Shown: piece after piece, positions 79-48,417 of the stretch
Numbering within the stretch: position 1 is the stretch's first letter
Layout: each line of letters starts with the position of its first letter
Sequence record: NC_070869.1
Direction: 5' to 3' (one strand)
Length of the DNA stretch: 64,000 nucleotides
DNA from: Escherichia phage vB_EcoP_SP5M
Program-made: the position numbers and the translations under genes
Notes under the pieces: generated by a model
What the model was told of the DNA's origin: nothing
Databases searched by the model: none
What the model saw: only the letters and a program-made list of their open reading frames with translations

Positions 79-93
79 ACATGCTCCGCATGT
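79..93 (+). promoter_or_regulatory. Hairpin promoter of N4 virion-RNAP type (ACATGC-TCC-GCATGT, then TATGGA)
   Basis: Perfect 6-bp inverted repeat with 3-nt loop TCC (GGA on template strand); same architecture recurs at 893, 1153, 5693. Confidence 0.6.
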
Positions 94-892: not shown

Positions 893-907
893 AGAAGCTC
901 CGCTTCT
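893..907 (+). promoter_or_regulatory. Hairpin promoter of N4 virion-RNAP type (AGAAGC-TCC-GCTTCT, then ATTGGA)
   Basis: 6-bp stem, TCC loop; flank AAAACCAAGA shared with the copy at 1153. Confidence 0.6.
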
Positions 908-1147: not shown

Positions 1148-1152
1148 AACCA

Positions 1153-1167
1153 AGATGCTCCGCATCT
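1153..1167 (+). promoter_or_regulatory. Hairpin promoter of N4 virion-RNAP type (AGATGC-TCC-GCATCT, then TATGGA)
   Basis: 6-bp stem, TCC loop, conserved flanks. Confidence 0.6.
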
Positions 1168-1280
1168 TATGGATGATGTAAATGCATCCACTAATCATTG
1201 AAATCTTAAGTCTTTTCTTGGGTTTAGTCACCGACAGACAAACCCATCAATCAAATAATCATTTATCTGGAGAGTACAAA

Positions 1281-1670: not shown

Positions 1671-1699
1671 AGACTCCCTTCGGGGAGTCTTTTATTTTT
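1671..1699 (+). terminator. Rho-independent terminator
   Basis: AGACTCCC-TTCG-GGGAGTCT hairpin followed by TTTATTTTT. Confidence 0.65.
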
Positions 1700-1804
1700 A
1701 ACTAGACGATAAGCTATTTCTACTTTTTGAGTATCTTTAGACGAAGGGTACTGAAACAGTAACCAGATAGATATAGATTTATATTAGATGAAGGAGTAAC
1801 CATT

Positions 1805-2213: not shown

Positions 2214-2510
2214 TATTCACTAACATAGAAGATGCCATTGAAGAATGCATCTTTCGTAGGTATCACACTGGTGTACAGAAACGACACTATGGTGTTGTGC
2301 AACTCAATGGCTATCAAATGGTTGTAAGAATTGTACGTAAGAGTAAACCTTTTAACTTTATGTGGAGTACTAAATCATGCGCAAGTCATTAATTATGGGA
2401 ACCAAAGAAGACGTACAAAAGATGAAAGAGCGTCTGGCTGCTAAGAAACAGACTTCTGAACCAGTACGTAAGATTGTTACCTTCAATCATCCATGTATCA
2501 AATAGCAGGG

Positions 2511-2540
2511 AGTCCTCCATTAGGAGGGCTTCTATTTTTT
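2511..2540 (+). terminator. Rho-independent terminator
   Basis: AGTCCTCC-ATTA-GGAGGGCT hairpin followed by TCTATTTTTT. Confidence 0.55.
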
Positions 2541-2583
2541 ATTCTTGAATAGTTAGATATGCATTTAAATAGGAGAAATAACC

Positions 2584-3118: not shown

Positions 3119-3130
3119 GGAATAAACAAA

Positions 3131-3963: not shown

Positions 3964-4274
3964 AAACTATTCTAGTAGTTCATGATTCTACATTTACCGA
4001 TGTAGATAAGATGATGCGTAATATTGATTATGTATCTCAGACAAGCCAAGCATTCAATGAAGAGTTTACTCTGTACTGTAATGCTGAATCTCCACTGGTT
4101 CCTATTATTAAGGAGTCAGGTATACCCTTCTCTACAGAGAACTTCCCGGAAGAACCAGACTATGTAATCTCATTTATATATGACTTACATGATGGTTCAG
4201 GGACTAGTGAATTAGCTATGAACCAGTGGCGTAGTAAACGTCCTGTGTTCGCATTTCAGGTACTTAAACCATGA
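3960..4274 (+). CDS. Hypothetical protein (104 aa)
   Basis: ORF track; overlapping stop/start. Confidence 0.4.
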   Translation: MKTILVVHDSTFTDVDKMMRNIDYVSQTSQAFNEEFTLYCNAESPLVPIIKESGIPFSTENFPEEPDYVISFIYDLHDGSGTSELAMNQWRSKRPVFAFQVLKP

Positions 4275-4651
4275 AGATTATGTCATTAGGTGACGACACC
4301 AATGCTTTATTAGGTGTATCTGCACGTCCAATTATCATTGTTAATAAACATCACGGTAAATCCGGTGAGTATATTGGACGTGGTTCACCTCTTGGAAATC
4401 CATTCGTCATTGGTAAACATGGAACCAGAGAGCAAGTAATTGCTAAGTATAAAGTCTGGCTACAAGAACAGATTGATAAAGGTAATCCAGTTGTACTGGA
4501 TGAACTCAATCGTCTGGGTAATAAAGCCATTGACGAGAAAGGACTAGCCTTACAGTGCTTCTGTTATCCGAAACCATGTCATGGTGAGGTTATTAAAGAG
4601 AAGCTAGTACAGGCTATGTATAACTACTTTGTGGAGAATCCTAATGGGTAA
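4271..4651 (+). CDS. DUF4326-like protein
   Basis: YIGRGSPLGNPF ... CFCYPKPCHG pattern recalled as DUF4326. Confidence 0.45.
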   Translation: MKIMSLGDDTNALLGVSARPIIIVNKHHGKSGEYIGRGSPLGNPFVIGKHGTREQVIAKYKVWLQEQIDKGNPVVLDELNRLGNKAIDEKGLALQCFCYPKPCHGEVIKEKLVQAMYNYFVENPNG

Positions 4652-4892
4652 GCCAAAGAACCATTCCAAAGAATGGGATAATCTAGATAATACTAACTTA
4701 AAATTATTAGTGGAATCTAATAAGTCTTTTGTAGAAATATCAAATATTATGCAGAGAACTCTTGCAGCTACTATAACCCAAGCTCAAAGGTTAAACCTAA
4801 TCCATGTACAAGATGTTGGAGGAGAATTAAGAAGTAAGATTATTTATAAAATTACTTACTTAGAATCCATACCATGGAGTACTTTCAAATGA
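4629..4892 (+). CDS. Hypothetical protein (87 aa)
   Basis: ORF track only. Confidence 0.3.
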   Translation: MWRILMGKPKNHSKEWDNLDNTNLKLLVESNKSFVEISNIMQRTLAATITQAQRLNLIHVQDVGGELRSKIIYKITYLESIPWSTFK

Positions 4893-5074
4893 ATAAACAG
4901 TGTAATTGTGGTAAAGGCTATGTATCCCAATGGGATAACAAGTGTGGTAAATGCCGAACCAAGAAAGAACAACGCGATCATGAGTATGCTCTTACTTATT
5001 TAGAAATGACACGTAACTATAACAATATGACCGCACATGATGCTTATATTTATAATAGAGAGGCTTGTAAATGA
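4874..5074 (+). CDS. Small zinc-ribbon-like protein (CNCG...CGKC)
   Basis: ORF track; Cys pairs. Confidence 0.4.
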   Translation: MEYFQMNKQCNCGKGYVSQWDNKCGKCRTKKEQRDHEYALTYLEMTRNYNNMTAHDAYIYNREACK

Positions 5075-5427
5075 AAGAAATCTTCGTATTTACTACCAAC
5101 ACGTTAGGTCAGCACACTAAGGGTGCTGCTAAAGTGGCTTATAAGAAGCACGGTGCTCGCTGGGGTATGGCTTATGGTCAGTATGGTAATAGCTTTGCTA
5201 TTCCTGTTAAGAACCAAGATGGTCAATACATCCGGGAAGAATATATTAATGGCTTTGTAGAAGGATTCATTAACTATGCCGCTATCAATCCTCAGTGGGA
5301 TTTCCACTTACATAGTACAGAACATTTAGACCCATATCAGTTCATTAATGCTACTGGTAATGTCCTGTTCCCAGAAGAATGGAGACAATACTTAGGTGAC
5401 AATTACAACTACTGGGGAACCTTCTAA
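5071..5427 (+). CDS. Hypothetical protein (118 aa)
   Basis: ORF track; overlapping stop/start. Confidence 0.45.
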   Translation: MKEIFVFTTNTLGQHTKGAAKVAYKKHGARWGMAYGQYGNSFAIPVKNQDGQYIREEYINGFVEGFINYAAINPQWDFHLHSTEHLDPYQFINATGNVLFPEEWRQYLGDNYNYWGTF

Positions 5428-5687
5428 TGACATATGAAGAACTATGGGCTGCTCAGGTTAGAGCCAGAGCACTCACACGGCATGACATCTACTGTGCATT
5501 GCAGAACGAATTAAAGGGTCGTACTAAGCTGGGTCACATATCAGGTTTAATTAAAATACCTATGCGTAGTCTGGTATGGCCTTATCGGGAAAAAAGTAAT
5601 GAATTTAGCGGTAATGGTTTATATGTACGTATTAACTACCTCGGCCAAGAGAACAATATTCGTATTGCCTTTTGGACTAAGCGTTAG
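5427..5687 (+). CDS. Hypothetical protein (86 aa)
   Basis: ORF track. Confidence 0.4.
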   Translation: MTYEELWAAQVRARALTRHDIYCALQNELKGRTKLGHISGLIKIPMRSLVWPYREKSNEFSGNGLYVRINYLGQENNIRIAFWTKR

Positions 5688-5692
5688 GTAAT

Positions 5693-5707
5693 AGCTGCTC
5701 CGCAGCT
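5693..5707 (+). promoter_or_regulatory. Hairpin promoter of N4 virion-RNAP type (AGCTGC-TCC-GCAGCT) upstream of RNAP II genes
   Basis: 6-bp stem, TCC loop, followed by TTGGGGA. Confidence 0.55.
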
Positions 5708-5720
5708 TTGGGGATATAAA

Positions 5721-5975
5721 ATGGATACAACTGCTGTAAGCATTGGGGAGATTGTAAAAAGAAAACATCAATTAAAATGGAGAGATTATCATCTATTAAA
5801 ACATCTTATTCGTATGACTGTTTCAAGCCCTACTCTACAATATTCAGAAGTAAGTGTACTAGGGGTAAGATTATCGATGTTTACCCATAGAGAGGTCGTA
5901 TCAAAGAGTATATTTATAAGCTGCTACTTCGATAAAAGTATTGGCAAATATGAATTCAATTGTTTTATTAAATAA
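5721..5975 (+). CDS. Hypothetical protein (84 aa)
   Basis: ORF track. Confidence 0.35.
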   Translation: MDTTAVSIGEIVKRKHQLKWRDYHLLKHLIRMTVSSPTLQYSEVSVLGVRLSMFTHREVVSKSIFISCYFDKSIGKYEFNCFIK

Positions 5976-5998
5976 ACTAATTTATTAGGAGATATGCG

Positions 5999-6817
5999 AT
6001 GTACTCATCTATTGAACATCAGAAGCAGCTTGAAGTCCTATTCAATAAAAATCAATTACTGCCTCGCATGAGGAAGGAATTCGAGGACTCCAAAGAAATT
6101 GACTTTAAGGCATTCGCTGCCTATTTAGAAATTGATTATAAGCTGCTCATTGATGCAATGGTGCAGATTGCCCTACATAAACGTGCTGACATCCAGACTA
6201 TGATTGGCTCTCTCATGAGTCACTCAGATGATGCTCAGTACATCGCTGACTGTCTGTATAAGATGGCAGAGAATGACTGCTTCAACTATGACCCTACCAT
6301 CGACAAGTTCGGTGTTATCTATGAGATTAGTGAAGATGTCCAAATGGAACTGGAAGCATTCCAGTATCCATTACCTATTGTAAGTGCTCCTAATCCCGTT
6401 AGAACTAACAGAGATACTGGTTACTACCAGACTAAAGGAAGCATCATACTCAAGAAGAACCATCATGAGATGGATGTCTGCCTTGACCACATCAACCGTA
6501 TGAACAATCAACGTCTTTGCATTAACTGGGACGTTGCCAACTATGTAAAAGACTCTCGTCCTAATATGGATAAACCCAAAGAAGGTGAAACCCGTCAGGA
6601 CTATGAGAAACGAGTTAAAGCCTTTGAGAAGTACAGCCGTACTGCTAAGGAAGTAATGGAGTTAGTGACTCAGGAAGGCAATAACTTCTCACTGGGTCAC
6701 AAATATGACAAACGTGGGCGTACTTACGCTCAGGGCTATCACATCAACTATCAGGGAACCAGCTACAACAAAGCTGTACTGGAGTTCGCTGATAAGGAGT
6801 TAGTAAATGAAGACTAA
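5999..6817 (+). CDS. Phage RNA polymerase II small subunit (N4 gp15-like, N-terminal half of a split T7-like RNAP)
   Basis: Size (272 aa) and position directly before the catalytic subunit; promoter hairpin upstream. Confidence 0.65.
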   Translation: MYSSIEHQKQLEVLFNKNQLLPRMRKEFEDSKEIDFKAFAAYLEIDYKLLIDAMVQIALHKRADIQTMIGSLMSHSDDAQYIADCLYKMAENDCFNYDPTIDKFGVIYEISEDVQMELEAFQYPLPIVSAPNPVRTNRDTGYYQTKGSIILKKNHHEMDVCLDHINRMNNQRLCINWDVANYVKDSRPNMDKPKEGETRQDYEKRVKAFEKYSRTAKEVMELVTQEGNNFSLGHKYDKRGRTYAQGYHINYQGTSYNKAVLEFADKELVNED

Positions 6818-7024
6818 CATTGGCTCCTATGAGTTATGGGTTAATGAAGAGTGTATCTACTCAGGTACGTATGTGAAGTGCCTATACTTTGAGAAGCTTT
6901 ATAAGCTTCAGAACCCTAAGAATAAAACCATTATTTATAAACTATCTGCCGACGTAGTAACTATCTAACCCTCCAATAAGCAGGCTCTCCATAGTGGGGA
7001 GCCAAGAAGCAAAAGGAAAATACA

Positions 7025-8242
7025 ATGCAACTGTTAACTGCCCGTGAATACCTGAAAGTAGATATCGCTAACAACTATGGCTTAGATAAAAAGACATGGG
7101 ATGAACGTATTAGCTGGTTCGATGAGAATGAAACTAACCTGCTTAATCTGGTAGATGAAGCTGAAGAATCTGCACTGTTCTATGCTGGTGTAAACGCATG
7201 GAAAGATATGAAAGCTGGTAAACCTATTGGTTATGCCGTAGCTCTGGATGCTACATCATCTGGCTTACAGTTACTGGCTTGCCTGACTGGTGACCGTTCT
7301 GCTGCTGAACTATGTAACGTAGTTAACTACATGGGTGAGAATGGTAAACCATTACGACGTGATGCTTATACAGTTATCTATCATAAGATGTTGGACATCC
7401 TTGGTGAAGCATCTCGTATTAAACGTAGTGACACCAAGCAGGCAGTTATGACTGCGTTCTACGGTTCAGAAGCCAAGCCTAAAGAAGTATTCGGTGAAGG
7501 TATCCGTCTCAAGACTTTTGAGAATGTAATGGAAACTGTTGCTAGTGGCCCTTGGGCACTGAACAAGTTCTTACTGCAATGCGGTAACCCGGATGCTAAC
7601 CGTTACGTATGGATACTGCCTGACAACTTCCACGCTGTCATTAAGGTCATGGTTCCTGAAGTACAGACCGTTAACTTCTTAGGTAAACCATTCGATATCA
7701 CACGTATGGTTCAGGGTACTGAAGAGAAGACACGTATGCTCTCTGCTAACATCACCCACTCTATTGATGGGATGGTGGTACGTGAGATGCTACGTCGTTG
7801 CAACTTCGACATGAACCAGGTGAACTATGTTAAGTCCCTCTGCGAAGGAACCAGTGATTATATGGTTGCCCCTGATGATAACTATGAAATGGTTAACACA
7901 CTGTGGTCTAACTATGAGAAGTCTGGCTACCTGTCTACCCGTATCTTTGATTATCTGGACTCAGAAACGATTGAATTGGTTGATACAGATGTAATCATGG
8001 CTATGCTCAATACCATGCCTAAGAAACCATTCCCTGTAATGACTGTACATGACTGCTTCCGTTGTCATCCTAACTATGGCAATGACCTGCGTCGTCAGTA
8101 CAATCAGATTCTGTCTGACATTGCTAAGAGTGACCTACTGGGCTTCATCCTGTCTCAGGTACTGGGACAAGAGTTCTCTGCTGGTAAGCTGGATGACAGC
8201 CTCTGGCAGGACATTCTTGAAACAGACTATGCATTAAGTTAA
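7025..8242 (+). CDS. Phage RNA polymerase II large subunit (N4 gp16-like, catalytic half of T7-like RNAP)
   Basis: YAVALDATSSGLQLL (motif A-like) and VHDCF (motif C-like); 405 aa. Confidence 0.75.
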   Translation: MQLLTAREYLKVDIANNYGLDKKTWDERISWFDENETNLLNLVDEAEESALFYAGVNAWKDMKAGKPIGYAVALDATSSGLQLLACLTGDRSAAELCNVVNYMGENGKPLRRDAYTVIYHKMLDILGEASRIKRSDTKQAVMTAFYGSEAKPKEVFGEGIRLKTFENVMETVASGPWALNKFLLQCGNPDANRYVWILPDNFHAVIKVMVPEVQTVNFLGKPFDITRMVQGTEEKTRMLSANITHSIDGMVVREMLRRCNFDMNQVNYVKSLCEGTSDYMVAPDDNYEMVNTLWSNYEKSGYLSTRIFDYLDSETIELVDTDVIMAMLNTMPKKPFPVMTVHDCFRCHPNYGNDLRRQYNQILSDIAKSDLLGFILSQVLGQEFSAGKLDDSLWQDILETDYALS

Positions 8243-8248
8243 TAAACT

Positions 8249-8286
8249 GGCCTCATTCCTTCGGGAGTGAGGCCTTTTATTTTTTG
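8249..8286 (+). terminator. Rho-independent terminator
   Basis: GGCCTCATTCC-TTCG-GGAGTGAGGCC hairpin followed by TTTTATTTTTT. Confidence 0.65.
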
Positions 8287-8302
8287 CTTGGAGGTAGTCA
8301 AC

Positions 8303-8485: not shown

Positions 8486-8512
8486 CCACCCTCAAGGGTG
8501 GCTTTCTTTTTT
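8484..8512 (+). terminator. Rho-independent terminator
   Basis: AGCCACCC-TCAA-GGGTGGCT hairpin followed by TTCTTTTTT. Confidence 0.6.
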
Positions 8513-38067: not shown

Positions 38068-41000
38068 TTAGTTTACTAAGTTCATCCAAGGGTTCAGGTT
38101 GTGAGCACGAAGCCCCTGACCAAAGCCCCATGAGTAATCCAGACTACCCTTAGCAGCAATGCTAAAGATGTTGTCCTGAATAGGTAAGCCAACGTTACCA
38201 AACATGGTAGGAGTTGGAGCCAGCATCGCCATTGCTGCATGTACTGGGTTGTTACGAATCATGGACACTGCAACTTTTGCTGAACGAATCTTAAAGTTGT
38301 AGAACCACATTAAACCAACACTTTCCATATACCCACGGAAGCGACCCGGCAGACGGTCATAGTTAACGAACTCTTCCGTTACACGTCCCAGTGCTTCTTC
38401 ACGAGTCTTACCTTTACGCTGGGTCAGTTCATCATAGATGATTGCTTTAGCGATAAAGTCAGAGTACTCAACAGTCTTCTGGATACCCTGGAACAAAGCA
38501 GTATCCTTAGTGATAAGTGCATAACGACCAGCAGTACGCACTGACTTAGGTAACTTATCAGCCAGCTTATCCATGTATTCGTGAAGTTTGCCCTCAGTAA
38601 TCAGGATGTCATCACGACCGATACCAGCATCCGCAATTGAAGAGAACTCACCAGCTTCTAACAGAGGCCAGATACTCATACGCTTATGGCTATCAGTAAT
38701 GGACTGAATCTCAGCCTTAAGTTTACGAATCTGGTTCGGGTTAGTAGCTGCACGTAATTCTGCTTCTGCATCTACCTGACGTAGACGAGATTTCAGGTAC
38801 TGATTAATCTCAGCAGTCTTCTGTGGAATGCTCTTAGCAATGTTCTTAACCGGTACGCCACGGGCAACCATCTGGTAAAGGTTAGCCAAGAAGTTAACAG
38901 CAGGTACGACTACTGACTTAACTACAATCAGAGTCTTAGCTTCTTTAACTAAGTTTTGAACCAGGTTCTCACCACCCATTGTGTACTTATATGCACGGTT
39001 ACCAAATACACCCAGCATAGCTTTCTTGAAGGTATCCAATGTTTCTGGGGACCAACGAGAATTACCAGACCAAGCATCCCCAACGGAAGCTGCACGATAA
39101 CCAAGTGCATCATTCAGCATGTCACGACGCACCCACAGTTCACCTTCACCGAATAAACTCTCTGCTTTCCGTCGAGTTTCACTGTTCATCAGCTTGAGAG
39201 CATCAGCAGTTACTGGGTCCAGTTTAGAACCAAGAAGATTCACATACTGGGACTTATTAGAGGCAGACATTTTAATGTCGTTCTCATACATGCTATGCAG
39301 GTTCTCAATCAGCATATCGTTGAAGCGTTGAGCCTTAGCTTCTTCCACCTGACGACCACGCCATACACCAATTGCACGGGCAAGATGGTTCTCACCTTCA
39401 ATGTGCTTCAGCATGTTAGGGTCAATGGATTGCTCATAGGCAACTACATTACCTTTATCGTCATATACTGGCAGCAGTGGTTCGTTGCCACGTTCACCAC
39501 GAGCCAGTGCTTTAGTGATACGGTCTACGGAAGGTTTGTCAGTAATACGACCAGCTACCATTGAACCTACCGTAAATCCTGTACCAAGATCTACACCACC
39601 AGCAGTATCACGAACGTTCTGTAGGATACCCTGTGAGAATGGAGCCTGTGCCTGTACTGGTGCAAAGTAGTAGCTACGTGCTGGACCACGGTTAGCAGAG
39701 CTACCTTGATAAGTACCAAGACGTACATAGGACTTCTCAATCAAATCACCAAACTGGCTATCTTCAGCAACAATCAGATTAACACCCTGTTTAGTCTCAC
39801 TAGGGATATGCCCTTTGTACTGGTTCAGAGTTGCACGTGGGTCAGACTTGGCTTTAGCCATTTCATCTTTACGCTGACCAACCAGATAAGAAGTAGCAAA
39901 GTCCATTCCATCAACTTCTGTCTGAGCCAGTGAAGATAACATTTCACGGTCAGACTTGTTCATTGCTTCCAGTGCATACAGGGTAATAAGTTTATCCAGT
40001 TGAGCTACATCTACAGTAGATCGAGCAGCCTGACGTTCACCCAGCATACGGGAGATTGCAGTAGCATTACGCAGTAGGTTATTACCAACTGTACCGTTAA
40101 TCATGTACTGAGCCAGTTGCTTAGATTTACGATTAATCAGGGGCCAGTTACGACCAGCTTGTTTCTGCAAATCTGCTTCCAGCTTATTCACTTCACGGTC
40201 AACAATCTTCTGGTCAGACAGCAGGTCACGGATTTCAGCCAGAGACATAGTATCCCGAAGAACAGCTAAGTCAGTTTTACCCATACCAGTGTGCATTGCT
40301 TTCCACTCATCATTAGTCAGCTTACGACTGAACTTAGATGCGATAGTGGTAGGCAGATGTTCACGGAATTGCTGTCGGTCTGCTTGTACCTGTGCACGAA
40401 CTGCTTTAATCAAATCGTATACAGAAGCATTGCTCTTAGTACGACCGGTTAAGTCATTAATTAAGTCATGAAAAGGTTGCCATACCTTACCCTGGTTCAT
40501 TGCTGCCATAACACCTTCAGCTACAATTGCACCATTCTTCTCTGTAGCAATAGCAGCTACCAGTTGTGCAGCATGAGCAGCACCTTTGACCAATGGGTTC
40601 TTAGTATTAGCTGCAACTTCACGAGCACTTTCTAAAGCACGAGTAGACAGTGCATCAATAGAATCCACCAGATACTGGTTAGCTCGGTCAATAGCATTAC
40701 CACTGGGAGTAGCAACGGAATCATAGAATGACTGTGCATTGAGGCTAGTCTGCATGATTGTCTGAGCCAGTGCATCCATACCTTCCTGTACGTTAGTAGC
40801 TTTGGTATCACCTGCTACACGGGCATTCAGGCTAGACATTGCAGCAGTACCAATGTTAGTCAGCATTGCATCAACGGTATTACCAGATTTCTTATCTGCT
40901 TTCATAACTGGAATGTTAGCCAGTACATTACGTACTTCTTCGCTAACCATTGCCAGACCAACAAAGGTAGGCAGTAAGGAAGAACGACCCTGTGCATCAA

Positions 41001-44000
41001 ACTCAATGTTGTTAGCACCCATGATTGTATCGAACTTCTGTTGAGCATAGTAACGGTCAGCAGGGTTAGTACTATCTGGGTCAGCCATGAATGCTTCAAC
41101 GGTCAGGTTCTTAGTAACGTGTGCATAGTATTCCTGTACACGAGAAAGAGCTGCCGGACTAATAGCAGCTTCGGTAGCCAGTGCAGCAACGATATTAGTG
41201 AACAGACGTTGCTCCTGCATATTCATAGTGAAGCCATGGGCCTGAACATCACGGGTTACTTTAGTTGCATTCACTACTGCATCAGAGAACTTACCTTTAC
41301 GAATTACTTGCTGTACTGGTTCAGAACCAATGTAGTTAGTAATCAGTTTATCAAAGGTCTGCCCCAACTCTTCCAGACGGGTATTGTCACCGTATGCCTT
41401 GTTATGGAACAAGGTAGTGTCCTTGGATACAGCAGCAGTAGGAGCCTGTCCACGCATAACCACAGAGGAGTTAAACAGTAAGCCAGAGAACATATCATCT
41501 GCATTAGCAGGTGCTTTCTTGCGACCAAATACCAGACGCTTGATTGCTTCATACACAGACTGAACCATAGCTTTCAGTGCTGTGGTCTTCTTCTGCTTAC
41601 CAATCAATTCACGGTTGGTTAAACCCCAAGCCATGTACTCATTCAGTGCAGCAGCTTTAGCCATTGCAGGTTCAATGAAGCCATTAGACAGGTGACCATT
41701 AATGGTAATAAGTGCATCAGCATATGCTTCACGTACTGCCGGAGATTCGTTCTTAACATCCAGAGTACGGAACTGGTTCATCAGGTCTTCAATATTCTGG
41801 ACTGCTTCATTATGAGTACCCTCGTAGTGAGCCAGTACAGATTCAAAAGTGGAAGCATGTACCAATTCATGAACCAGAGTCTCTAAGGAAGGGGTAACTA
41901 AGTAGATGGTCTTATCATCGAAGTTAGTCCAACCATACGCATTACCTGCTTCGGCAGCTTCAATATCTTCCGGTGCTGGACGGGTAATGTTCTTCTCAAT
42001 AGCATAAGCATCCAGTTGAGCAGGTGTACCGTAAACAACCTTGTAGTCTTTAGCAGCAAGAGATTTCTGTACTTCCTTCAATACTGCTTGCTGCTCAGGA
42101 GACATCTCTTTAGCCAGCTTAGTAATAGCAGTATTGGACAGCAGACGTACACCAGACTTAAGTACACGACCAACTTGTTCCATTGCTGGAATTTCTTTCA
42201 CTGGTTCTGCTTTAGCAGCACGTACTGCATCACGACGCTTGTTTAATTCAGCATCAAACAGTTCGTTCAACTTAGCTACTTGCTGGTCTACAGTCAGACC
42301 TTCCAGAGAGATTTTACCGTTATTCACATAAGGAGCACCTACAGCAGCCATCTGGTCAACAGTGGTCTGCACCTGGTTCATTACTTTGTGGCGAATATCT
42401 ACACCAAGAGCAATGTTACGCAGGTTACGTTCAATCTGTTCAGCACCTGCACGTAACAGGTCATCAGTAGCTCCCTCACGCTGGTCATATTCCAGAGCAG
42501 ATTTAGCGATAGCCTGTTTGGTTTCATCAGACAGTTTGCTGAAGTCTACATTCTTCATGAACTTAGCGTAGGAGTCATAAACATTCTTGATAGGGTTACC
42601 CTGCCAAGAAGTGTATACAGCCTCGTTAGCTTTGCGACTTGCATCAGTGATGTCACTGATACCAATGTTCATACCATCAAAGATTTTCAAGGTATTCTTT
42701 GGAGCACCTTTCATAGTAGAAAGGGTCTGCATCATCATGCCATCACCAGTACCGATGGTCATAAATGGAATACCTGCAACACCTGCCTGTGAAGGAGCAT
42801 AGATGCTCATTGGCACACGCATACGGTCATCTAAGTTGGTAGCCAGTACTTGGTTAGCAACATCAGTATTCTCACTACCAGCAATGTAGAAAGTCTGTGA
42901 GCCAGTCTCAATCATTGGAGCCAGTGGAGATAAAGATTCCTGGATTTCATTCAGTTCTTTCTGTGTTAAGAAATCACCCTTCTTCCAGGTTGAGTCTTTT
43001 TCTTTTTCTGCCAGCTTAGCCTGTACTGCTTGCTGGAACATATCCTGCAATACCAGAGACTGAATCTGGGTAGCCTTCTGCAAGTTCTCAGTAGAGTGCA
43101 TCAGACCTTCACCAACAGTATTACGGATACCAGTACGCATTGGTTCAACGAACAGGTAGAGCATGTTCTCTTGTAAGTTCTTCAGGGCATTACCGGATAC
43201 GGTAAATTTCTGAGGGTTTAACTTACCAGTCAGAGCACCATCTACTTGCTGAATAGACAACTCACCTTTACGCACAACTGGAACATTGCCAGTCAGTGCT
43301 TCCATAGAAGTAAGGAAAGTATCCAGCATAGCCTGAGCATCAGCCTCAGACGCAGCCTCCTTACCAAACATTGCCATAGCTGGGGAAATGCTAGGGTCAG
43401 CAGCCCGTGCTTGCAGAACGTCACTGAGGCGTTCATAGATGGTGTCAGTAATTGCACTAACCATCTTACCAGCAATACCACGAGCACCAGAACCATAGAT
43501 GGTAATGGTCAGTGGGTTTTTGGCGATACCACGTTTCAGGTCCAGAGTACCGTCTTCATTCAGGTTGAAGTCTTTAATGAACAAGTCCATTAACTTCTGA
43601 AGATGGTTCATCTGGCTCATAACTGGAACGTTGTTACGGTAAGTAGTACGTAACTCATTCAGGGCTTGTTGCAGACCATTGGTAGATGCTTCATACAGGT
43701 CAACACTGTCATCCTGTGAACGATGCTCGTTCATAGTCTTACCAGCTTTACCAAAGAACAAACCACCCTTAGCAGTATTCTTAATCCAGTCTGGAGTGAA
43801 CTTACCACCAGTCATTAATACCATTGCGTTGATTGGGCCGTTAGTTACACCATCAGCTTCAACGTACAGTGGAGTATTAAAGTTGGCACGGTCATCGCTG
43901 TTCAGGTAACGAGCATATTCCATCAGAGCCATGAGAGCCACGAAGGATTTGTCACCACCCAGAGAAGTCTTCAGGATATCTACTGCATCAGCAGGTAAGT

Positions 44001-47000
44001 GACCAGACTTATCGAACTCAACCATCATATCAACAGCTGGCTTCAGATTGCCTTCCAGAGCCTTGGTCAGCTTTTCAGACATAGCCTCACGGGACATGTT
44101 ATGTACCTTGATGCCCAATGCCTGAGCCAGTCCTAGCTGGAAGTCAGAGTACGCTTGGCTGTTTTCATTACTTAAGTCGATAGTAGAGAAGGTCGGCAGA
44201 ATTGCTTCACGAACCAGTTTACTGGATTGTGGGTTGTTCTTACCAAGCATCTGCATACGGCCTACACGAGTCATGTTGTAACTGTAGTGAATAGGAGTAT
44301 CCAGTCCATTCTCTTGTTCTCGTATCTGATTAATTACACCGAACAGAGAATCATATGCCATAGACACGGACAGGTTTTTACCTTCCAGAGATTTAGCAGT
44401 GTTCTCATTCAGTAAGTCAGGATTAAGAGTACCAGCACCCATCAGTTCCAGAATGTTGTCACGGCCTAATGCTTCATAGAAGTTAACCATCGGCATATGT
44501 ACACGGAACTCAGTAGCCTGTTCAGCTTTCAGAGCAGCTTTCTGCTCAGGGGTATTTTTAACAGCAGGATTACGTAACTGAGTTTGAGCCACGGAAGGAA
44601 TGTCATCACCGAAGTACATTTTCTCTTCCGGATTTACCAGCACAGCTTCCTCAATTGCTGTAGGGAAATCATTAATAGGGTCTTTATCTGCCAGCTTATT
44701 AATGGTGTACAGACCAACAGTCTTATTAGAGTCTGGGTCAATCTCAGACACATCCAGCATAGTCTCAGTAACTGCACCCATCTCAATGAGAGAAGACAGA
44801 ATCTCTGTAGCCATTGCCATTGGGATACCTTTTGTATATCCCAAAGGTGCATTAGGATTGCGATTTAAACCCCAGTAGGATTCAATCTTCTGAGCCAGTG
44901 AGCTAGTAGCTTCAACCAGAGTCTGGGCATTCTCAAACTCAGCCAGAATACTTTCTGGTAACAGAGATGCTTCTACACCAGTAATAGCAGCTACATCTTT
45001 CATATCTTTAATAGCAGCATTCTGTGTAGCAGTCAGTCGCCATTGCAGACCAGCAAGCACAGCAGTCTCTAACAACTGGTCATTGAACTTAAAGGTATCA
45101 CCATCTCGTTCAACGATATTCAGCAGTTTGCCACCTACCCAACGATTAGCCTCAGTACCTTCTGCAAAACGTTTACCAACATTTTTGTTAGCAAGGAACT
45201 TAGCCAGTCGTTCAGACAGAGTAGTCTTCAGAGTTTCCCCAAAGTCCATCAAGTCCTGATAACGTTTCATCACATCACTGGTGAGAGCGTTATTTTCTTT
45301 TTGAGTGAATGCTTCAAAGCGAGCAGCAGAAGACAGTGCTTGCTTAATATCAGTCAAAGGAGATTCAGAACCAATGGTACGGGACTTAGGTTCTTCTGGT
45401 AGGGTAAATGCTTTCAGGAACTGGTTCGGTGTCTTTTCATTGTTATAGACAGGGAACACTGTTTCCATTTCTGTTTTGGTTTCGACTACTTCCTGGGTAG
45501 CATCTACTGTTTCAGATTCAGTAGTAGAGACTTCTTCTGCTTTTGGACTAGTCTCCTTAGTAGGAGCAGTCTTATTTTCTACCACTGGTTTAGATTTAGG
45601 CTGTACAGTAGTAGTGTCCTCTTGCACTGGTGCAGGAGATTCATCAACCTGATTCACTGGTTCATTGGTCTGTTGGGATTGAGCAGCATCAAGACTGCCC
45701 TGACGGAACTCTTTAACTACCTGAGCAGCAGGCTTGTTCAGACGTGGATCCAACGAGGTAACTTTCACATGAGAAACATTAAGCTCCGGGTAAGCCGTAG
45801 CAAGTGCATTAGCAATATCAGCTACGGTTTTGGCCTCCAGTCCTACTTGCTGGGCAAACTTAACAGACTTGGTATCATAAGGATTGACACCGAGACCAGT
45901 ACGACTACGTACCCATTCACGGGAAGGCGAGAGAGCCTGATAATGAACAGACTTATTCTTATCCGCATTCCCAGAAATCAGATGCTCATTCAACGCTCCG
46001 ACCTTATTCTGCATGTGCTGGGCGAACTTCATAAAGTCGCTCAGATAAGCGGAGGCCAAATCGAAGTTACCAGAGTTATACGCAGAACGAATGCGTTTCG
46101 CATGTTGCAACGCAGAGTACTGTCCTTCGTTAGAACGAGACTCGTCGGTTTTAATCTGTTTACTAACAATGTCTTGAGGACGTAAGCCTAGTTCTTCTGC
46201 TTTAGCGTCGAACTCACGTGCACCCTGTAATAAGGCAGCAGCCGATTGCAGGGCAGCACGTTGACGATTCCCCAGTGTAATCTTACCTTCACTTGCATGT
46301 TTCAGAACCATGTTCACTGAATCTGCGTCCAGTACTTCTGGAGACACATCAGCAGCCATAGCAATGTTGTTTGCTTGGGCTTGGTTAGCTTCTTCAGTAG
46401 CTTTCAGCTTACCTGCTTCAGCCTGTTCCTGAATCATGGAATGGATAGCACGGAATGCACGGAGTACTTTAGGGGTATTCTGTACGTTAGCCATCAGACC
46501 GGAGAACTGGTCTACGATAGTAGCAGCAGGGGAACCTTGTTCCAGATTAGCCAGAGCACCTGGGTCACGGTTAATGAAGCTATCCATAGACATGATGTTG
46601 TCATACATCTGGATTGCAGCTTCCATTTGAACGTTAGGGTCTTCGGCAGTATTAACCAGGTCAGCCATCTTCTGAATAGCTTCTACACGGTTAGTGGAAC
46701 CAGAAACAGCTTCACGGATTACTGGGTTAGCTTGTTCCAATTCTACTGGGTCAAACTTCATTGCCTGAGTTAAGTCAGCAGCATACTGAGTAGCAGCAGC
46801 TTTCTCTTCTGGAGTGATATCCATTGCATCTACTGCTTCCTGTACAGTTGCTTGTGCTTGCTCTGCCTGAGCAGCAGCTTCCTGTGCAGCAGCGTTAACC
46901 GTAGCATCAGCTACAGGGGATGCTTGTTCATTACGCTTAGCAACTTCTTCACCACGTTGAACCAGGATGTTAGTAAGAGGAGATGCAGCTTTTGCTAATG

Positions 47001-48417
47001 TTTTACCAACCAGAGAAGCACCAGCCAGAGTAGTACGAAGAGCAGGACCAGCAGCAGCTCCGGCAGCTTTAACAGTTGCACCTGGAGCTTGAGCAACCCC
47101 AGCACTACCGAAGCCATAAAGTGCACCAAGACCTGCTTGCTCACCAACCCCTTTGAGAGTGTCACGGGATGCATCAACATTTTCCTTGATTGCACGGTTC
47201 TGGGCATACTGACCAAAGCCTGACTGAATACCTTCCTCTACAGTCTCACGAAGCATATTAGAACCAGCACCTGCCAGTGAACCTACCTTAAGTGGATTAA
47301 GTTCAAACTTGGATACCAGTGGACCAGTAGCAGCAGCAACTGGGGCAGTTAAGCCAGCAGCAATGATACCTGTTTCGGATGCAGTCTGACGACGTGCTTC
47401 ATCAGGAGATAATCCATCAGCAATATGTTGTTGGTAAACAGGAGATTTACTTGCCAGTTCTTGATGAGGCATCTTCATGATTTCAGAAGCAGTCTGTTGG
47501 TATGCACCACCAGCTTCCATACCACCGATTGCAATAGCAGGTGCAGCAACACGACCAGCAGACAATGCAACCTGTGCAGGACGTGAACCTAACTCAGCAG
47601 CTAAGGTAATACCCTTAACAGCTTTATCCCCTCCTACCATTACTTTACCGAGTGCAGATACACCACGGATAAGTGGACCACCAGTAAAGAGGGAACCAAC
47701 ACCTTCACTCAGTCCATCGGAGGCAGCCATACCATTATCAAGTGTATTAGCAACAGAATCGAAAGCATCACGACCAATGCGGGACAAGGAGGCAACCAAA
47801 TCGCTCTCCCCGTTTTTGATGTCTTGTTCATAAAGTTTCTGGTTCTTTTGAGCAGAAATCTGGTTCTGATTCTGAACAACTTTACGGGTAGCATTCAGTG
47901 CATCAGACTGTAAATTGTGTACACCTTCATTCAACCAATCCATCCCGGAAGCAATGGATGCCCCGGCATTATCATTGACCAGACCTGTGCCAAGAGCAGC
48001 AATGCCCCCAAGGGTATTAGCAACACCAAGACCAACACCAGAAAGAGTATCGCCAAATGCTTCTGCGTTAGTACGTTGTTTAGATAAGTCCTGACGTACA
48101 GCATCAGCAGCATTAGCTCGGCTATTAAGAATTTGTAGACCCTGCTCATTACCGTATTTATTAATGATTTCTAAGGGGGAGGCTTGAGTGAAATCTGCCT
48201 GAAGTGAACCTGGTTCGAATGCACCGATTCCAAGATTACCTACTCGTCCGGTCTGGAGATTGTAAGCATTCTCTGGGGTTAATTGGAAAGGGCTTTGCCC
48301 TTGTGCAGCTTGCTTCTGAGAGGTTGCAGTAGAGACATCGACTTGCTTAGCATTAGTGATGCTGTCTGCGAAACCTGCCAGACGGTCAAATGTTGACATA
48401 GCATGTTTCCTGTTCAA
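38068..48417 (-). CDS. Virion-encapsidated RNA polymerase (N4 gp50-like vRNAP), 3449 aa
   Basis: Giant ORF at the N4 vRNAP position; TRVGR (T/DxxGR-like) and other RNAP-like motifs in the central region. Confidence 0.85.
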   Translation of the reverse strand: MNRKHAMSTFDRLAGFADSITNAKQVDVSTATSQKQAAQGQSPFQLTPENAYNLQTGRVGNLGIGAFEPGSLQADFTQASPLEIINKYGNEQGLQILNSRANAADAVRQDLSKQRTNAEAFGDTLSGVGLGVANTLGGIAALGTGLVNDNAGASIASGMDWLNEGVHNLQSDALNATRKVVQNQNQISAQKNQKLYEQDIKNGESDLVASLSRIGRDAFDSVANTLDNGMAASDGLSEGVGSLFTGGPLIRGVSALGKVMVGGDKAVKGITLAAELGSRPAQVALSAGRVAAPAIAIGGMEAGGAYQQTASEIMKMPHQELASKSPVYQQHIADGLSPDEARRQTASETGIIAAGLTAPVAAATGPLVSKFELNPLKVGSLAGAGSNMLRETVEEGIQSGFGQYAQNRAIKENVDASRDTLKGVGEQAGLGALYGFGSAGVAQAPGATVKAAGAAAGPALRTTLAGASLVGKTLAKAASPLTNILVQRGEEVAKRNEQASPVADATVNAAAQEAAAQAEQAQATVQEAVDAMDITPEEKAAATQYAADLTQAMKFDPVELEQANPVIREAVSGSTNRVEAIQKMADLVNTAEDPNVQMEAAIQMYDNIMSMDSFINRDPGALANLEQGSPAATIVDQFSGLMANVQNTPKVLRAFRAIHSMIQEQAEAGKLKATEEANQAQANNIAMAADVSPEVLDADSVNMVLKHASEGKITLGNRQRAALQSAAALLQGAREFDAKAEELGLRPQDIVSKQIKTDESRSNEGQYSALQHAKRIRSAYNSGNFDLASAYLSDFMKFAQHMQNKVGALNEHLISGNADKNKSVHYQALSPSREWVRSRTGLGVNPYDTKSVKFAQQVGLEAKTVADIANALATAYPELNVSHVKVTSLDPRLNKPAAQVVKEFRQGSLDAAQSQQTNEPVNQVDESPAPVQEDTTTVQPKSKPVVENKTAPTKETSPKAEEVSTTESETVDATQEVVETKTEMETVFPVYNNEKTPNQFLKAFTLPEEPKSRTIGSESPLTDIKQALSSAARFEAFTQKENNALTSDVMKRYQDLMDFGETLKTTLSERLAKFLANKNVGKRFAEGTEANRWVGGKLLNIVERDGDTFKFNDQLLETAVLAGLQWRLTATQNAAIKDMKDVAAITGVEASLLPESILAEFENAQTLVEATSSLAQKIESYWGLNRNPNAPLGYTKGIPMAMATEILSSLIEMGAVTETMLDVSEIDPDSNKTVGLYTINKLADKDPINDFPTAIEEAVLVNPEEKMYFGDDIPSVAQTQLRNPAVKNTPEQKAALKAEQATEFRVHMPMVNFYEALGRDNILELMGAGTLNPDLLNENTAKSLEGKNLSVSMAYDSLFGVINQIREQENGLDTPIHYSYNMTRVGRMQMLGKNNPQSSKLVREAILPTFSTIDLSNENSQAYSDFQLGLAQALGIKVHNMSREAMSEKLTKALEGNLKPAVDMMVEFDKSGHLPADAVDILKTSLGGDKSFVALMALMEYARYLNSDDRANFNTPLYVEADGVTNGPINAMVLMTGGKFTPDWIKNTAKGGLFFGKAGKTMNEHRSQDDSVDLYEASTNGLQQALNELRTTYRNNVPVMSQMNHLQKLMDLFIKDFNLNEDGTLDLKRGIAKNPLTITIYGSGARGIAGKMVSAITDTIYERLSDVLQARAADPSISPAMAMFGKEAASEADAQAMLDTFLTSMEALTGNVPVVRKGELSIQQVDGALTGKLNPQKFTVSGNALKNLQENMLYLFVEPMRTGIRNTVGEGLMHSTENLQKATQIQSLVLQDMFQQAVQAKLAEKEKDSTWKKGDFLTQKELNEIQESLSPLAPMIETGSQTFYIAGSENTDVANQVLATNLDDRMRVPMSIYAPSQAGVAGIPFMTIGTGDGMMMQTLSTMKGAPKNTLKIFDGMNIGISDITDASRKANEAVYTSWQGNPIKNVYDSYAKFMKNVDFSKLSDETKQAIAKSALEYDQREGATDDLLRAGAEQIERNLRNIALGVDIRHKVMNQVQTTVDQMAAVGAPYVNNGKISLEGLTVDQQVAKLNELFDAELNKRRDAVRAAKAEPVKEIPAMEQVGRVLKSGVRLLSNTAITKLAKEMSPEQQAVLKEVQKSLAAKDYKVVYGTPAQLDAYAIEKNITRPAPEDIEAAEAGNAYGWTNFDDKTIYLVTPSLETLVHELVHASTFESVLAHYEGTHNEAVQNIEDLMNQFRTLDVKNESPAVREAYADALITINGHLSNGFIEPAMAKAAALNEYMAWGLTNRELIGKQKKTTALKAMVQSVYEAIKRLVFGRKKAPANADDMFSGLLFNSSVVMRGQAPTAAVSKDTTLFHNKAYGDNTRLEELGQTFDKLITNYIGSEPVQQVIRKGKFSDAVVNATKVTRDVQAHGFTMNMQEQRLFTNIVAALATEAAISPAALSRVQEYYAHVTKNLTVEAFMADPDSTNPADRYYAQQKFDTIMGANNIEFDAQGRSSLLPTFVGLAMVSEEVRNVLANIPVMKADKKSGNTVDAMLTNIGTAAMSSLNARVAGDTKATNVQEGMDALAQTIMQTSLNAQSFYDSVATPSGNAIDRANQYLVDSIDALSTRALESAREVAANTKNPLVKGAAHAAQLVAAIATEKNGAIVAEGVMAAMNQGKVWQPFHDLINDLTGRTKSNASVYDLIKAVRAQVQADRQQFREHLPTTIASKFSRKLTNDEWKAMHTGMGKTDLAVLRDTMSLAEIRDLLSDQKIVDREVNKLEADLQKQAGRNWPLINRKSKQLAQYMINGTVGNNLLRNATAISRMLGERQAARSTVDVAQLDKLITLYALEAMNKSDREMLSSLAQTEVDGMDFATSYLVGQRKDEMAKAKSDPRATLNQYKGHIPSETKQGVNLIVAEDSQFGDLIEKSYVRLGTYQGSSANRGPARSYYFAPVQAQAPFSQGILQNVRDTAGGVDLGTGFTVGSMVAGRITDKPSVDRITKALARGERGNEPLLPVYDDKGNVVAYEQSIDPNMLKHIEGENHLARAIGVWRGRQVEEAKAQRFNDMLIENLHSMYENDIKMSASNKSQYVNLLGSKLDPVTADALKLMNSETRRKAESLFGEGELWVRRDMLNDALGYRAASVGDAWSGNSRWSPETLDTFKKAMLGVFGNRAYKYTMGGENLVQNLVKEAKTLIVVKSVVVPAVNFLANLYQMVARGVPVKNIAKSIPQKTAEINQYLKSRLRQVDAEAELRAATNPNQIRKLKAEIQSITDSHKRMSIWPLLEAGEFSSIADAGIGRDDILITEGKLHEYMDKLADKLPKSVRTAGRYALITKDTALFQGIQKTVEYSDFIAKAIIYDELTQRKGKTREEALGRVTEEFVNYDRLPGRFRGYMESVGLMWFYNFKIRSAKVAVSMIRNNPVHAAMAMLAPTPTMFGNVGLPIQDNIFSIAAKGSLDYSWGFGQGLRAHNLNPWMNLVN

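What the first reader, a model, noticed from the sequence alone, without database searches (positions are those of the whole stretch)
5693..5707. Fourth hairpin promoter placed upstream of the RNAP II operon
The same stem-TCC-stem element recurs 5 kb downstream, just ahead of the ORF preceding the two RNAP II subunit genes. This implies the middle-gene polymerase is itself transcribed by the injected virion RNAP, giving a built-in early-to-middle cascade; the downstream box differs (TTGGGGA), which could tune strength.
Basis: partly seen in the sequence, partly recalled or inferred. Interest (0 to 1): 0.4.

Follow-up and report, generated by a model that had tools for sequence, protein, structure and literature searches.

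The report
N4-type early promoter before RNAPII genes
This 15-base DNA hairpin is a genuine copy of the start signal used by the RNA polymerase that N4-like phages inject with their DNA, and it sits exactly where phage N4 and its relatives have one, so it is a real but already described feature.

Summary
Window 5693-5707 is a perfect 6-bp stem with a 3-nt loop (AGCTGC-TCC-GCAGCT). It is one of only four GCTCCGC-centred hairpins in 64 kb. All four lie on the + strand, between genes, in the first 6 kb; shuffles give 0.05.

The window is a G7C-like coliphage (Gamaleyavirus, N4 family). The element meets every sequence rule published for N4 virion-RNA-polymerase (vRNAP) early promoters, and the window's own vRNAP keeps 8 of 9 N4 promoter-contact residues.

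The same hairpin lies upstream of the RNAPII small-subunit gene in all 17 N4/G7C/KP8-group genomes examined. The heptamer never changes, and the stem changes only through compensatory substitutions. N4 itself has it at 4546-4562, almost certainly its mapped promoter P3. Phage KP8's GenBank record annotates the orthologue as "early promoter" (published as P4).

The "different box" (TTGGGGA) keeps the conserved GG start. It varies with an optional 84-aa gene placed 10 nt after the predicted start, so it need not be a strength tuner.

Verdict: real, correctly interpreted, already known, low interest. No transcript data exist for this phage.

The parts
5693..5707 (+). Hairpin core of the RNAPII-proximal vRNAP early promoter: AGCTGC-TCC-GCAGCT. 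The functional hairpin is the template (-) strand form 5'-AGCTGC-GGA-GCAGCT-3', spanning promoter positions -18 to -4.
   Evidence: Searches show the sequence. The DNA fold of the - strand is -5.7 kcal/mol, z = -2.8. The element is conserved in 17 of 17 related genomes, with compensatory stem changes.
5697..5703 (+). Invariant GC-rich heptamer GCTCCGC centred at -11 (loop centre C5700). On the template strand this gives -12A, -11G, -10G, -9C and -8G.
   Evidence: The heptamer occurs only 4 times in the window, all at hairpins. Across the window and 16 related loci, 54 of 54 copies are on the sense strand and 53 of 54 have a stem. The determinants are as published for N4 (PMC4496689).
5708..5714 (+). 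Initiation box TTGGGGA. The predicted start is G5711 (+1, template C), 11 nt after the loop centre. G5710 at -1 is an unusual base, found in 1 of 46 unique promoters.
   Evidence: In the loop-anchored alignment of 46 unique promoters, G is at +1 in 45 and at +2 in 46, although this was not a selection criterion. The identical box is present in phages K57alpha1.2 and NAN33P5. The start site is inferred, not measured.
5721..5975 (+). 84-aa accessory ORF, the first gene of the predicted transcript, with a 10-nt leader. It belongs to a variable small-protein family that is absent from N4 and PhAPEC7.
   Evidence: tblastn finds 93-99% identity in three Gamaleyaviruses and 33% identity to KP8 ORF21. 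There is no PHROG or Pfam match.
5999..6817 (+). RNAPII small subunit, homologue of N4 gp15 (called RNAP1 or RNAP1 subunit B in database records).
   Evidence: phrog_2166, N4-like RNA polymerase, E 2e-117. The annotations of relatives agree.
6807..6968 (+). Conserved 53-aa ORF between the two RNAPII subunit genes.
   Evidence: phrog_15352, E 7e-41. It corresponds to PhAPEC7_16.
7025..8242 (+). RNAPII large subunit, homologue of N4 gp16 (called RNAP2 in database records).
   Evidence: phrog_2051, RNA polymerase, E 8e-177.
8249..8284 (+). Strong intrinsic terminator (11-bp stem followed by TTTTATTTTT) directly after the large-subunit gene. It is the probable 3' end of the unit that starts at 5711.
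79..93 (+). Sister promoter before the gp1 homologue; equivalent to N4 P1.
893..907 (+). Sister promoter before a 68-aa DUF7279 ORF (941-1147). This is the lineage-variable extra promoter, absent from N4 and PhAPEC7.
1152..1168 (+). Sister promoter before the gp2 homologue (1182-1661), with an 11-nt leader; equivalent to N4 P2.
   Evidence: PhAPEC7 annotates the homologous ORF as gp2-like.
1671..1700 (+). Intrinsic terminator after the gp2 homologue. It lies between the left-end promoters and the RNAPII genes.
2508..2543 (+). Second strong intrinsic terminator between the left-end promoters and the RNAPII genes.
38068..48399 (-). Virion RNA polymerase gene (homologue of N4 gp50), the enzyme predicted to read the hairpin. 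The ORF as listed begins at a TTG at 48417. The methionine that aligns with the N4 start lies 6 codons further in.
   Evidence: One search lists the ORF. It is 67% identical to N4 gp50 overall and 71.5% over the polymerase domain. K114, R119, W129, K268, K849, K850, D901 and R904 are conserved, and K267 is replaced by N.

Best explanation
The element is a functional N4-type early promoter read by the virion-encapsidated RNA polymerase (vRNAP). It is the orthologue of the hairpin that precedes gene 15 in phage N4.

Proposed mechanism, taken from N4 biochemistry and inferred for this phage:
1. [quoted passage not shown]
2. Negative supercoiling from host gyrase extrudes the inverted repeat at 5693-5707.
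3. Host SSB melts the non-template arm and leaves the template-strand hairpin 5'-AGCTGC-GGA-GCAGCT-3'.
4. vRNAP binds the hairpin. The tryptophan equivalent to mini-vRNAP W129 stacks on -11G. K114 and R119 contact -10G and -11G. [quoted passage not shown] The intercalating hairpin sets the double-strand/single-strand junction at -5/-4, which would open the sixth stem pair.
5. Transcription starts 11 nt after the loop centre, at + strand G5711.
6. The transcript (5'-GGGAUAUAAAAUG...) carries the 84-aa ORF, the RNAPII small subunit, a 53-aa ORF and the RNAPII large subunit. It probably ends at the terminator at 8249-8284.

Because two strong terminators (1671, 2508) separate the left-end promoters from these genes, this promoter gives the middle-phase polymerase genes a start that does not depend on read-through.

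Shown here: the sequence, its non-random occurrence, conservation, covariation, strand specificity, the fixed GG register and conservation of the polymerase contact residues. Inferred: that transcription actually starts here, and when.
For: The window is a Gamaleyavirus of the N4 family.

Promoter features:
- Perfect 6-bp stem with a 3-nt loop TCC.
- Four GCTCCGC hairpins against 0.051 expected; 0 of 1000 shuffles reached four.
- Template-strand bases -12A, -11G, -10G, -9C, -8G and +1C all match the determinants published for N4 (PMC4496689).
- GGA-loop promoters are the high-affinity class, KD 2 nM (PMC13037366).

Orthology:
- N4 has exactly three such hairpins in its first 12 kb: 90-102, 557-573 and 4546-4562. 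The third lies between gp14 and gene 15, and its flanks align with the window. This matches the three mapped promoters in the leftmost 10% of N4.
- The KP8 paper lists P4 AAGCAGCTCCGCTGCTTGTGGG before ORF21 and the RNAP1 subunit B gene. GenBank MG922974 annotates 5963-5984 as 'early promoter'.

Conservation:
- The hairpin is present upstream of the RNAPII small-subunit gene in 17 of 17 genomes of the group.
- The stem covaries (C:G to G:C, U:A to A:U). Covariation score is 0.245 against 0.076 for shuffled partners, 0 of 500 shuffles as high. Across all 46 unique promoters the score is 0.468 against 0.127.
- 54 of 54 heptamers are on the sense strand and 53 of 54 carry a stem.
- GG sits at +1/+2 in 45 and 46 of 46 promoters without having been selected for.

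Polymerase and context:
- The vRNAP keeps 8 of 9 promoter-contact residues.
- No sigma-70 or terminator call falls on the site, and + strand terminators lie at 1671, 2508 and 8249.
- vRNAP transcription of genes 15 and 16 is established for N4.
- Hairpin early promoters have been confirmed by TSS mapping in the N4-like phage LUZ7.
Against: - There are no transcript or biochemical data for this phage or any Gamaleyavirus in the material I could reach.
- The identification of N4's hairpin at 4546 as the mapped P3 is an inference from counting.
- G at -1 is unique among the 46 unique promoters, so efficiency or the exact start (5710-5712) could differ.
- Read-through from the upstream promoters could also supply RNAPII mRNA, so the quantitative contribution of this promoter is unknown.
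Confidence: 0.88

Rival explanations
1. The hairpin acts mainly at the RNA level, as a weak intrinsic terminator or a 3'-stabilising stem-loop for transcripts arriving from the upstream early genes, rather than as a promoter.
For: It lies 5 nt after the stop codon of ORF 5427-5687 and is followed by TTT (TTTT in N4). The hairpins at 893 and 1152 are flagged as terminator-like on the opposite strand.
Against: The terminator scan does not call it on the + strand, where only 3 T follow the stem. Genuine terminators in this region have 8-11-bp stems and long T runs. Terminators do not need an invariant loop and closing pairs (46 of 46), strict strand polarity (54 to 0) or a GG at a fixed distance. 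A minor additional terminator or attenuator role is not excluded.
Confidence: 0.04
2. The promoter is a non-functional or largely redundant relic. The RNAPII genes would be expressed by read-through from the three left-end promoters, and the hairpin would persist only by descent.
For: No expression data exist for this phage. G at -1 is atypical. Read-through of phage terminators is common in N4-like phages (LUZ7).
Against: The heptamer and the GG are invariant while the stem bases change in compensating pairs across genomes whose RNAPII small subunit is only about 70% identical. That pattern indicates purifying selection on the structure. Two strong terminators lie upstream. The TTGGGGA variant is shared unchanged by two other isolates.
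Confidence: 0.05
3. The inverted repeat is a double-stranded palindromic binding site (operator) for a dimeric phage or host protein.
For: It is a perfect palindrome apart from the 3-nt centre and sits between genes.
Against: Stem bases at two positions are free to change provided they stay complementary, whereas the asymmetric centre TCC is invariant and always on one strand. This is the signature of a single-strand structure, not of a sequence-specific duplex site. The element matches the N4 vRNAP rules exactly.
Confidence: 0.02
4. The element is a chance palindrome.
For: Short 3-nt-loop hairpins are frequent in this window: 41 with stems of at least 6 bp.
Against: Shuffles give 0.051 GCTCCGC-centred hairpins against 4 observed. 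Orthologous conservation is found in 17 of 17 genomes.
Confidence: 0.01

Closest known systems
Phage N4 early (vRNAP) promoter at EF056009 4546-4562, between gp14 and gene 15; by inference the mapped promoter P3.
   Same: It has the same heptamer GCTCCGC and loop, and an almost identical stem (AAGCTGC/GCAGCTT against AGCTGC/GCAGCT). The upstream flank is conserved (ACGTTAGGCAAT against GCGTTAGGTAAT). GG lies at +1/+2, and the position ahead of the RNAPII small-subunit gene is the same.
   Different: The stem is 7 bp in N4 and 6 bp here. Position -1 is T in N4 and G here. In N4 the hairpin is 41 nt before gene 15, whereas here an 84-aa ORF lies between them. That the N4 element is the published P3 was deduced from there being exactly three such hairpins; it was not read from the primary paper.
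Klebsiella phage KP8 putative early promoter P4 (MG922974 5963-5984; Viruses 2019, PMC6950046, Table 1).
   Same: It has the same four-promoter layout (89, 962, 1225 and 5965 in KP8; 79, 893, 1152 and 5693 here). P4 is followed after a 10-nt leader by a homologous small ORF (33% identity) and then the RNAPII genes. A G-run lies at the start (GTGGGGG in KP8, TTGGGGA here). The GenBank record annotates it as an early promoter.
   Different: The KP8 stem is AAGCAGC/GCTGCTT, which carries a compensatory A:T for T:A change and is 7 bp long. KP8 belongs to a different genus (Kaypoctavirus). The KP8 promoter is also only a prediction by similarity to N4.
Pseudomonas phage LUZ7 early hairpin promoters, with start sites mapped by ONT-cappable-seq (PMC9163698).
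   Same: They have a stem of at least 4 bp, a conserved 3-nt loop and initiation at G at a fixed distance downstream. They are read by an injected vRNAP.
   Different: LUZ7 is a distant genus. Its start lies 13-14 bp from the hairpin centre, against 11 predicted here. Its promoter positions in the early region differ: before genes 1, 12 and 13 as predicted by Ceyssens et al. 2010 (PMC3715699).

Membership tests
N4-type vRNAP early hairpin promoter | Inverted repeat forming a 5-7-bp stem with a 3-nt loop | tested here: met
   Perfect 6-bp stem and 3-nt loop at 5693-5707. The template-strand DNA fold is -5.7 kcal/mol, z = -2.8.
N4-type vRNAP early hairpin promoter | GC-rich heptamer centred at -11. 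On the template strand: loop 5'-G(G/A)A-3' with a central purine, a loop-closing G:C pair, -10G, -9C and -8G. | tested here: met
   + strand GCTCCGC at 5697-5703 corresponds to template 5'-GCGGAGC-3'. The rules are from PMC4496689.
N4-type vRNAP early hairpin promoter | Template C (non-template G) at +1, 11 nt after the loop centre and 8 nt after -8 | tested here: met
   G5711 and G5712. GG is in this register in 45 and 46 of 46 unique promoters.
N4-type vRNAP early hairpin promoter | Located in the first-injected left-end early region and oriented with the early genes | tested here: met
   The element is 5.7 kb from the left end of the window. That end aligns with the genome left end of N4, PhAPEC7 and others. 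All heptamers are on the sense strand.
N4-type vRNAP early hairpin promoter | A cognate virion RNA polymerase with the promoter-recognition residues is encoded in the same genome | tested here: met
   The gp50 homologue lies at 38068-48399 (-). K114, R119, W129, K268, K849, K850, D901 and R904 are conserved and K267 is N.
N4-type vRNAP early hairpin promoter | Structure maintained in evolution: stem covariation with an invariant recognition core | tested here: met
   (0 of 500 shuffles reach the observed covariation score). Selection on the stem barely filtered the set, since 53 of 54 heptamers have a stem.
N4-type vRNAP early hairpin promoter | Rifampicin-resistant initiation by vRNAP in vivo or in vitro, dependent on gyrase and SSB | not testable with these tools
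   This requires 5'-end mapping or run-off transcription. No data set for a Gamaleyavirus was found.
Rho-independent terminator | GC-rich stem followed by a run of at least 5 T on the transcribed strand | tested here: not met
   Only TTT follows the stem, and the + strand scan does not call the site.
Sigma-70 promoter (host RNAP) | -35 and -10 hexamers with 16-18-nt spacing upstream of the ORF | tested here: not met
   No + strand match lies between 5248 and 5813. The nearest matches are at 5220-5247 and 5814-5841.

The most novel reading that the evidence does not exclude
The most novel reading not excluded concerns the gene behind the promoter rather than the promoter itself. The slot directly after this promoter holds an optional, fast-evolving small-protein family: 84 aa here, 76-81 aa in relatives, absent from N4 and PhAPEC7. 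Its ATG always lies 10-11 nt after the predicted start, so the initiating GG(G/A) would also serve as the ribosome-binding purines. Being co-transcribed with the RNAPII subunits, this protein could be an undescribed accessory factor or regulator of the middle polymerase, or an early host-takeover factor. The unusual -1G/+3G box would then be part of a translation signal rather than a promoter-strength signal.
Probability: 0.12. Interest if true: 0.35.

Novelty: already known. Interest (0 to 1): 0.12.

Why it matters
It matters little beyond correct annotation. The result confirms that this Gamaleyavirus uses the N4 transcription programme. An injected polymerase reads supercoil-extruded DNA hairpins, and one of those hairpins gives the genes for the second (middle) polymerase a start that does not depend on reading through two upstream terminators. 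Most database records of G7C-like phages, including G7C, PhAPEC7 and Mimir124, do not annotate these promoters. A simple rule would let them be annotated automatically across the subfamily: GCTCCGC with at least 2 further complementary pairs, GG 11-12 nt after the loop centre, on the sense strand. No open question is advanced.

Tried and rejected
- I tried to read the primary N4 promoter papers to get the published coordinate of P3: Gleghorn 2008 (PMC2639713), Davydova 2007 (PMC1855362) and Choi 2008 (PMC2396777). None is held.
- A full-text search for the promoter sequences as strings returned only unrelated primer hits.
- A search for older mini-vRNAP papers found nothing useful.
- A search for transcriptome or TSS data on N4 or G7C-like phages found only LUZ7 and unrelated phages.
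- Rfam gave no family in 1-9000.
- PHROGs and Pfam gave nothing for the 84-aa ORF.
- I looked for an RNAPII-proximal hairpin in more distant N4-like contigs, where the RNAPII small subunit is at most 55% identical (L017-L022). None of the TYC-loop type (Y = C or T) is present within 1.5 kb upstream, so the conserved position is limited to the N4/G7C/KP8 group.
- I listed all 41 perfect 3-nt-loop hairpins in the window to look for a second conserved class, such as hairpin middle promoters like those of LUZ7. No shared loop or flank was evident.
- I considered and rejected a terminator, a sigma-70 promoter, a duplex operator and a chance palindrome (see rival explanations).

Full report
**What the window is.** The first 9 kb match G7C-like coliphages (genus Gamaleyavirus, subfamily Enquatrovirinae, family Schitoviridae, the N4-like phages) at 87-95% identity with mosaic coverage. 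The window starts at the genome's left end, as in N4, PhAPEC7 and St11Ph5. ORFs 5999-6817 and 7025-8242 are the two subunits of the N4-type heterodimeric RNA polymerase II (PHROG E-values 2e-117 and 8e-177). The giant virion RNA polymerase (vRNAP) gene lies at 38068-48417 on the minus strand.

**Checking the observation.**
- Positions 5693-5707 read AGCTGC-TCC-GCAGCT, a perfect 6-bp stem with a 3-nt loop, followed by TTGGGGA.
- The same design is at 79-93, 893-907 and 1152-1168.
- The heptamer GCTCCGC occurs exactly four times in 64 kb. All four are on the + strand, at these hairpins and between genes.
- In 1000 dinucleotide-preserving shuffles, the mean number of GCTCCGC-centred hairpins with stems of at least 5 bp (both strands) was 0.051. 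The maximum was 2 and none reached 4.

**What it is.** The N4 literature defines vRNAP early promoters as follows:
- a 5-7-bp stem with a 3-nt loop;
- a GC-rich heptamer centred at -11;
- specific recognition of template -11 purine, -10G, -8G and +1C;
- a sheared -10G:-12A pair;
- specificity-loop contacts to -9C/-10G and -8G;
- a start 8 nt downstream of -8, with no base contacts at -4 to -1 (PMC4496689).

Placing the loop centre C5700 at -11, the template strand here carries -12A, -11G, -10G, -9C and -8G, with C opposite G5711 at +1. Every determinant is met. GGA-loop promoters are the high-affinity class. The single-stranded template arm folds as the expected hairpin (-5.7 kcal/mol, z = -2.8). 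The site has no sigma-70-like match and is not called as a terminator. Rfam has no match.

**Relatives.**
- N4 itself (EF056009) has exactly three hairpins of this kind in its first 12 kb. They lie at 90-102 (TTC loop, before gp1), at 557-573 (AAGAAGC-TCC-GCTTCTT, before gp2; its four T at -4 to -1 fit the 'four As' described for the crystallised P2 template) and at 4546-4562 (AAGCTGC-TCC-GCAGCTT, between gp14 and gene 15).
- N4 has three mapped vRNAP start sites in its leftmost 10%, each with such a heptamer and inverted repeats. The third hairpin is therefore almost certainly P3.
- The window's element aligns with the N4 element through the flanks as well.
- I fetched 20 viral contigs that encode relatives of the RNAPII small subunit. 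Taking the window, N4, PhAPEC7 and the 14 contigs that are at least 70% identical, all 17 genomes have a GCTCCGC hairpin upstream of that gene.
- Among these orthologues the heptamer is invariant, while two stem positions change in compensating pairs (C:G to G:C, U:A to A:U). The covariation score is 0.245 against 0.076 for shuffled partners, with 0 of 500 shuffles as high, and every slid register is far worse.
- Across all 46 unique promoters of these genomes the score is 0.468 against 0.127.
- The stem criterion did not bias this, because 53 of 54 heptamers found in 275 kb have a stem. All 54 are on the sense strand and none on the other.
- When the promoters are anchored on the loop, G is at +1 in 45 of 46 and at +2 in 46 of 46, although this was not used to select them. 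This independently supports a start at G5711.
- The window's vRNAP is 71.5% identical to N4's polymerase domain. It keeps K114, R119, W129, K268, K849, K850, D901 and R904; only K267 is changed, to N.

**Prior description.**
- The Klebsiella phage KP8 paper lists four putative early promoters at 89, 962, 1225 and 5965. P4 is AAGCAGCTCCGCTGCTTGTGGG, lying before ORF21 and the RNAP1 subunit B gene (PMC6950046).
- The KP8 GenBank record carries a 'promoter, early promoter' feature at 5963-5984.
- KP8 ORF21 is a 33%-identical homologue of the window's 84-aa ORF.
- That vRNAP transcribes genes 15 and 16, whose products then carry out middle transcription, is standard N4 biology.

**What 'fourth' means.** N4 and PhAPEC7 have three promoters: before gp1, before gp2 and before the RNAPII genes. 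The window, L005 and KP8 have an additional one between gp1 and gp2; here it is 893-907, ahead of a 68-aa DUF7279 ORF. The RNAPII-proximal hairpin is thus one of the three core promoters, not the extra one.

**The 'different box'.** In N4, PhAPEC7, G7C and others, the hairpin sits 31-41 nt before the RNAPII small-subunit ATG and is followed by TTTTGGT(A/T)ATTAAT. In the window, L005, L007, L010, Mimir124 and KP8, a small ORF of one divergent family (76-84 aa) lies between them. This family shares the N-terminal motif AVSIxEIVxKxHxxKW. The sequence diverges immediately after the stem, and the ORF's ATG is always 10-11 nt after the predicted start.

The window's TTGGGGA is identical in phages K57alpha1.2 and NAN33P5, whereas Mimir124 and L007 have TTTAGGAGA before the same gene. 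All variants keep GG at +1/+2. The variation therefore tracks the leader and ribosome-binding region of the optional gene. Whether G at -1 (unique among the 46) alters initiation is untested.

**Likely mechanism.** Strong + strand terminators lie at 1671 and 2508, downstream of the left-end promoters, and at 8249, directly after the RNAPII large-subunit gene. The simplest model is as follows. Gyrase-driven extrusion and host SSB expose the template hairpin. vRNAP initiates at G5711. It transcribes the 84-aa ORF, the small subunit, a conserved 53-aa ORF and the large subunit, and terminates at 8249-8284. This gives the middle polymerase a start that does not rely on terminator read-through. All steps after the sequence-level evidence are inferred from N4.

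**Rivals.** A terminator or RNA-stabiliser role, a relic promoter, a duplex operator and a chance palindrome were each considered. The invariant asymmetric loop, strict strand polarity, fixed GG register, covariation and shuffle statistics argue against all of them.

**Verdict.** The feature is already known: it is the orthologue of N4's gene-15-proximal promoter and of the annotated KP8 P4. Interest is low.

Noticed in passing
window 5721-5975; also L005 6748-6978, L007 6723-6977, L010 6745-6981, L016 (KP8) 5992-6237: An optional small-protein family (76-84 aa, conserved N-terminal AVSIxEIVxKxHxxKW) sits directly after the RNAPII-proximal promoter in some Enquatrovirinae and is absent from N4, PhAPEC7 and G7C. 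Its ATG is always 10-11 nt after the predicted start, so the mRNA would have a very short leader. It has no Pfam or PHROG family.
   Followed up: partly
window 893-1147 and 1805-1990: An extra hairpin-promoter-plus-ORF cassette lies between the gp1 and gp2 homologues; N4 and PhAPEC7 lack it. Its 68-aa product is DUF7279 (E 8.5e-21), and a 61-aa paralogue (DUF7279, E 7.5e-10) lies at 1805-1990. Both end in a KPT(K/R)KQIRKL motif.
   Followed up: partly
window 2584-5687: About 14 small + strand ORFs lie downstream of two strong terminators (1671, 2508). They have no hairpin promoter of their own and no good sigma-70 match. Their early expression would have to come from terminator read-through or from another polymerase.
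   Followed up: no
window 885-892 and 1145-1151: The promoters at 893 and 1152, and their orthologues, share an upstream TAAAACC motif. On the opposite strand this makes hairpin plus GGTTTT look terminator-like. The gp1-proximal and RNAPII-proximal classes instead share ACGTTA upstream, at different offsets. The promoter classes therefore have class-specific upstream flanks of unknown role.
   Followed up: no
whole window: Perfect hairpins with 3-nt loops and stems of at least 6 bp are about twice as frequent as in shuffles (41 against 18.4 +/- 4.4, maximum 31). Apart from the four promoters and one terminator-like stem (38039-38061), no shared loop or flank was seen.
   Followed up: partly
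window 38068-48417 (-), residue equivalent to N4 mini-vRNAP K267: One of the two lysines of the intercalating hairpin, which in N4 melt the base of 7-bp stems, is asparagine here (K267N). The other eight promoter-contact residues are conserved.
   Followed up: no
L004 (phage G7C) 503-515: G7C has an additional GCTCCGC hairpin (AACGC-TCC-GCGTT) that lacks the GG at +1/+2 (it has CG instead). It is the only one of the 46 unique promoters to do so and may be a decayed or non-canonical promoter.
   Followed up: no
L017-L022 (contigs whose RNAPII small subunit is at most 55% identical): More distant N4-like contigs have TTC/TCC-loop hairpins in their early regions but none within 1.5 kb upstream of the RNAPII small-subunit gene. 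The RNAPII-proximal promoter seems confined to the N4/G7C/KP8 group.
   Followed up: partly
literature: PMC13492108 (J Bacteriol 2026): The same paper speaks of three N4 early promoters (P1-P3) in its introduction and of four (P1-P4) in its discussion. My scan of N4 positions 1-12000 finds only three canonical hairpins.
   Followed up: partly
OY979416.1 42458-42973 (Klebsiella phage vB_Kpl_K57alpha1.2; L026): In this record a single CDS, flagged as a pseudogene, is annotated straight across the stop codon of the upstream gene, the promoter hairpin and the 84-aa ORF. This appears to be an annotation artefact.
   Followed up: no
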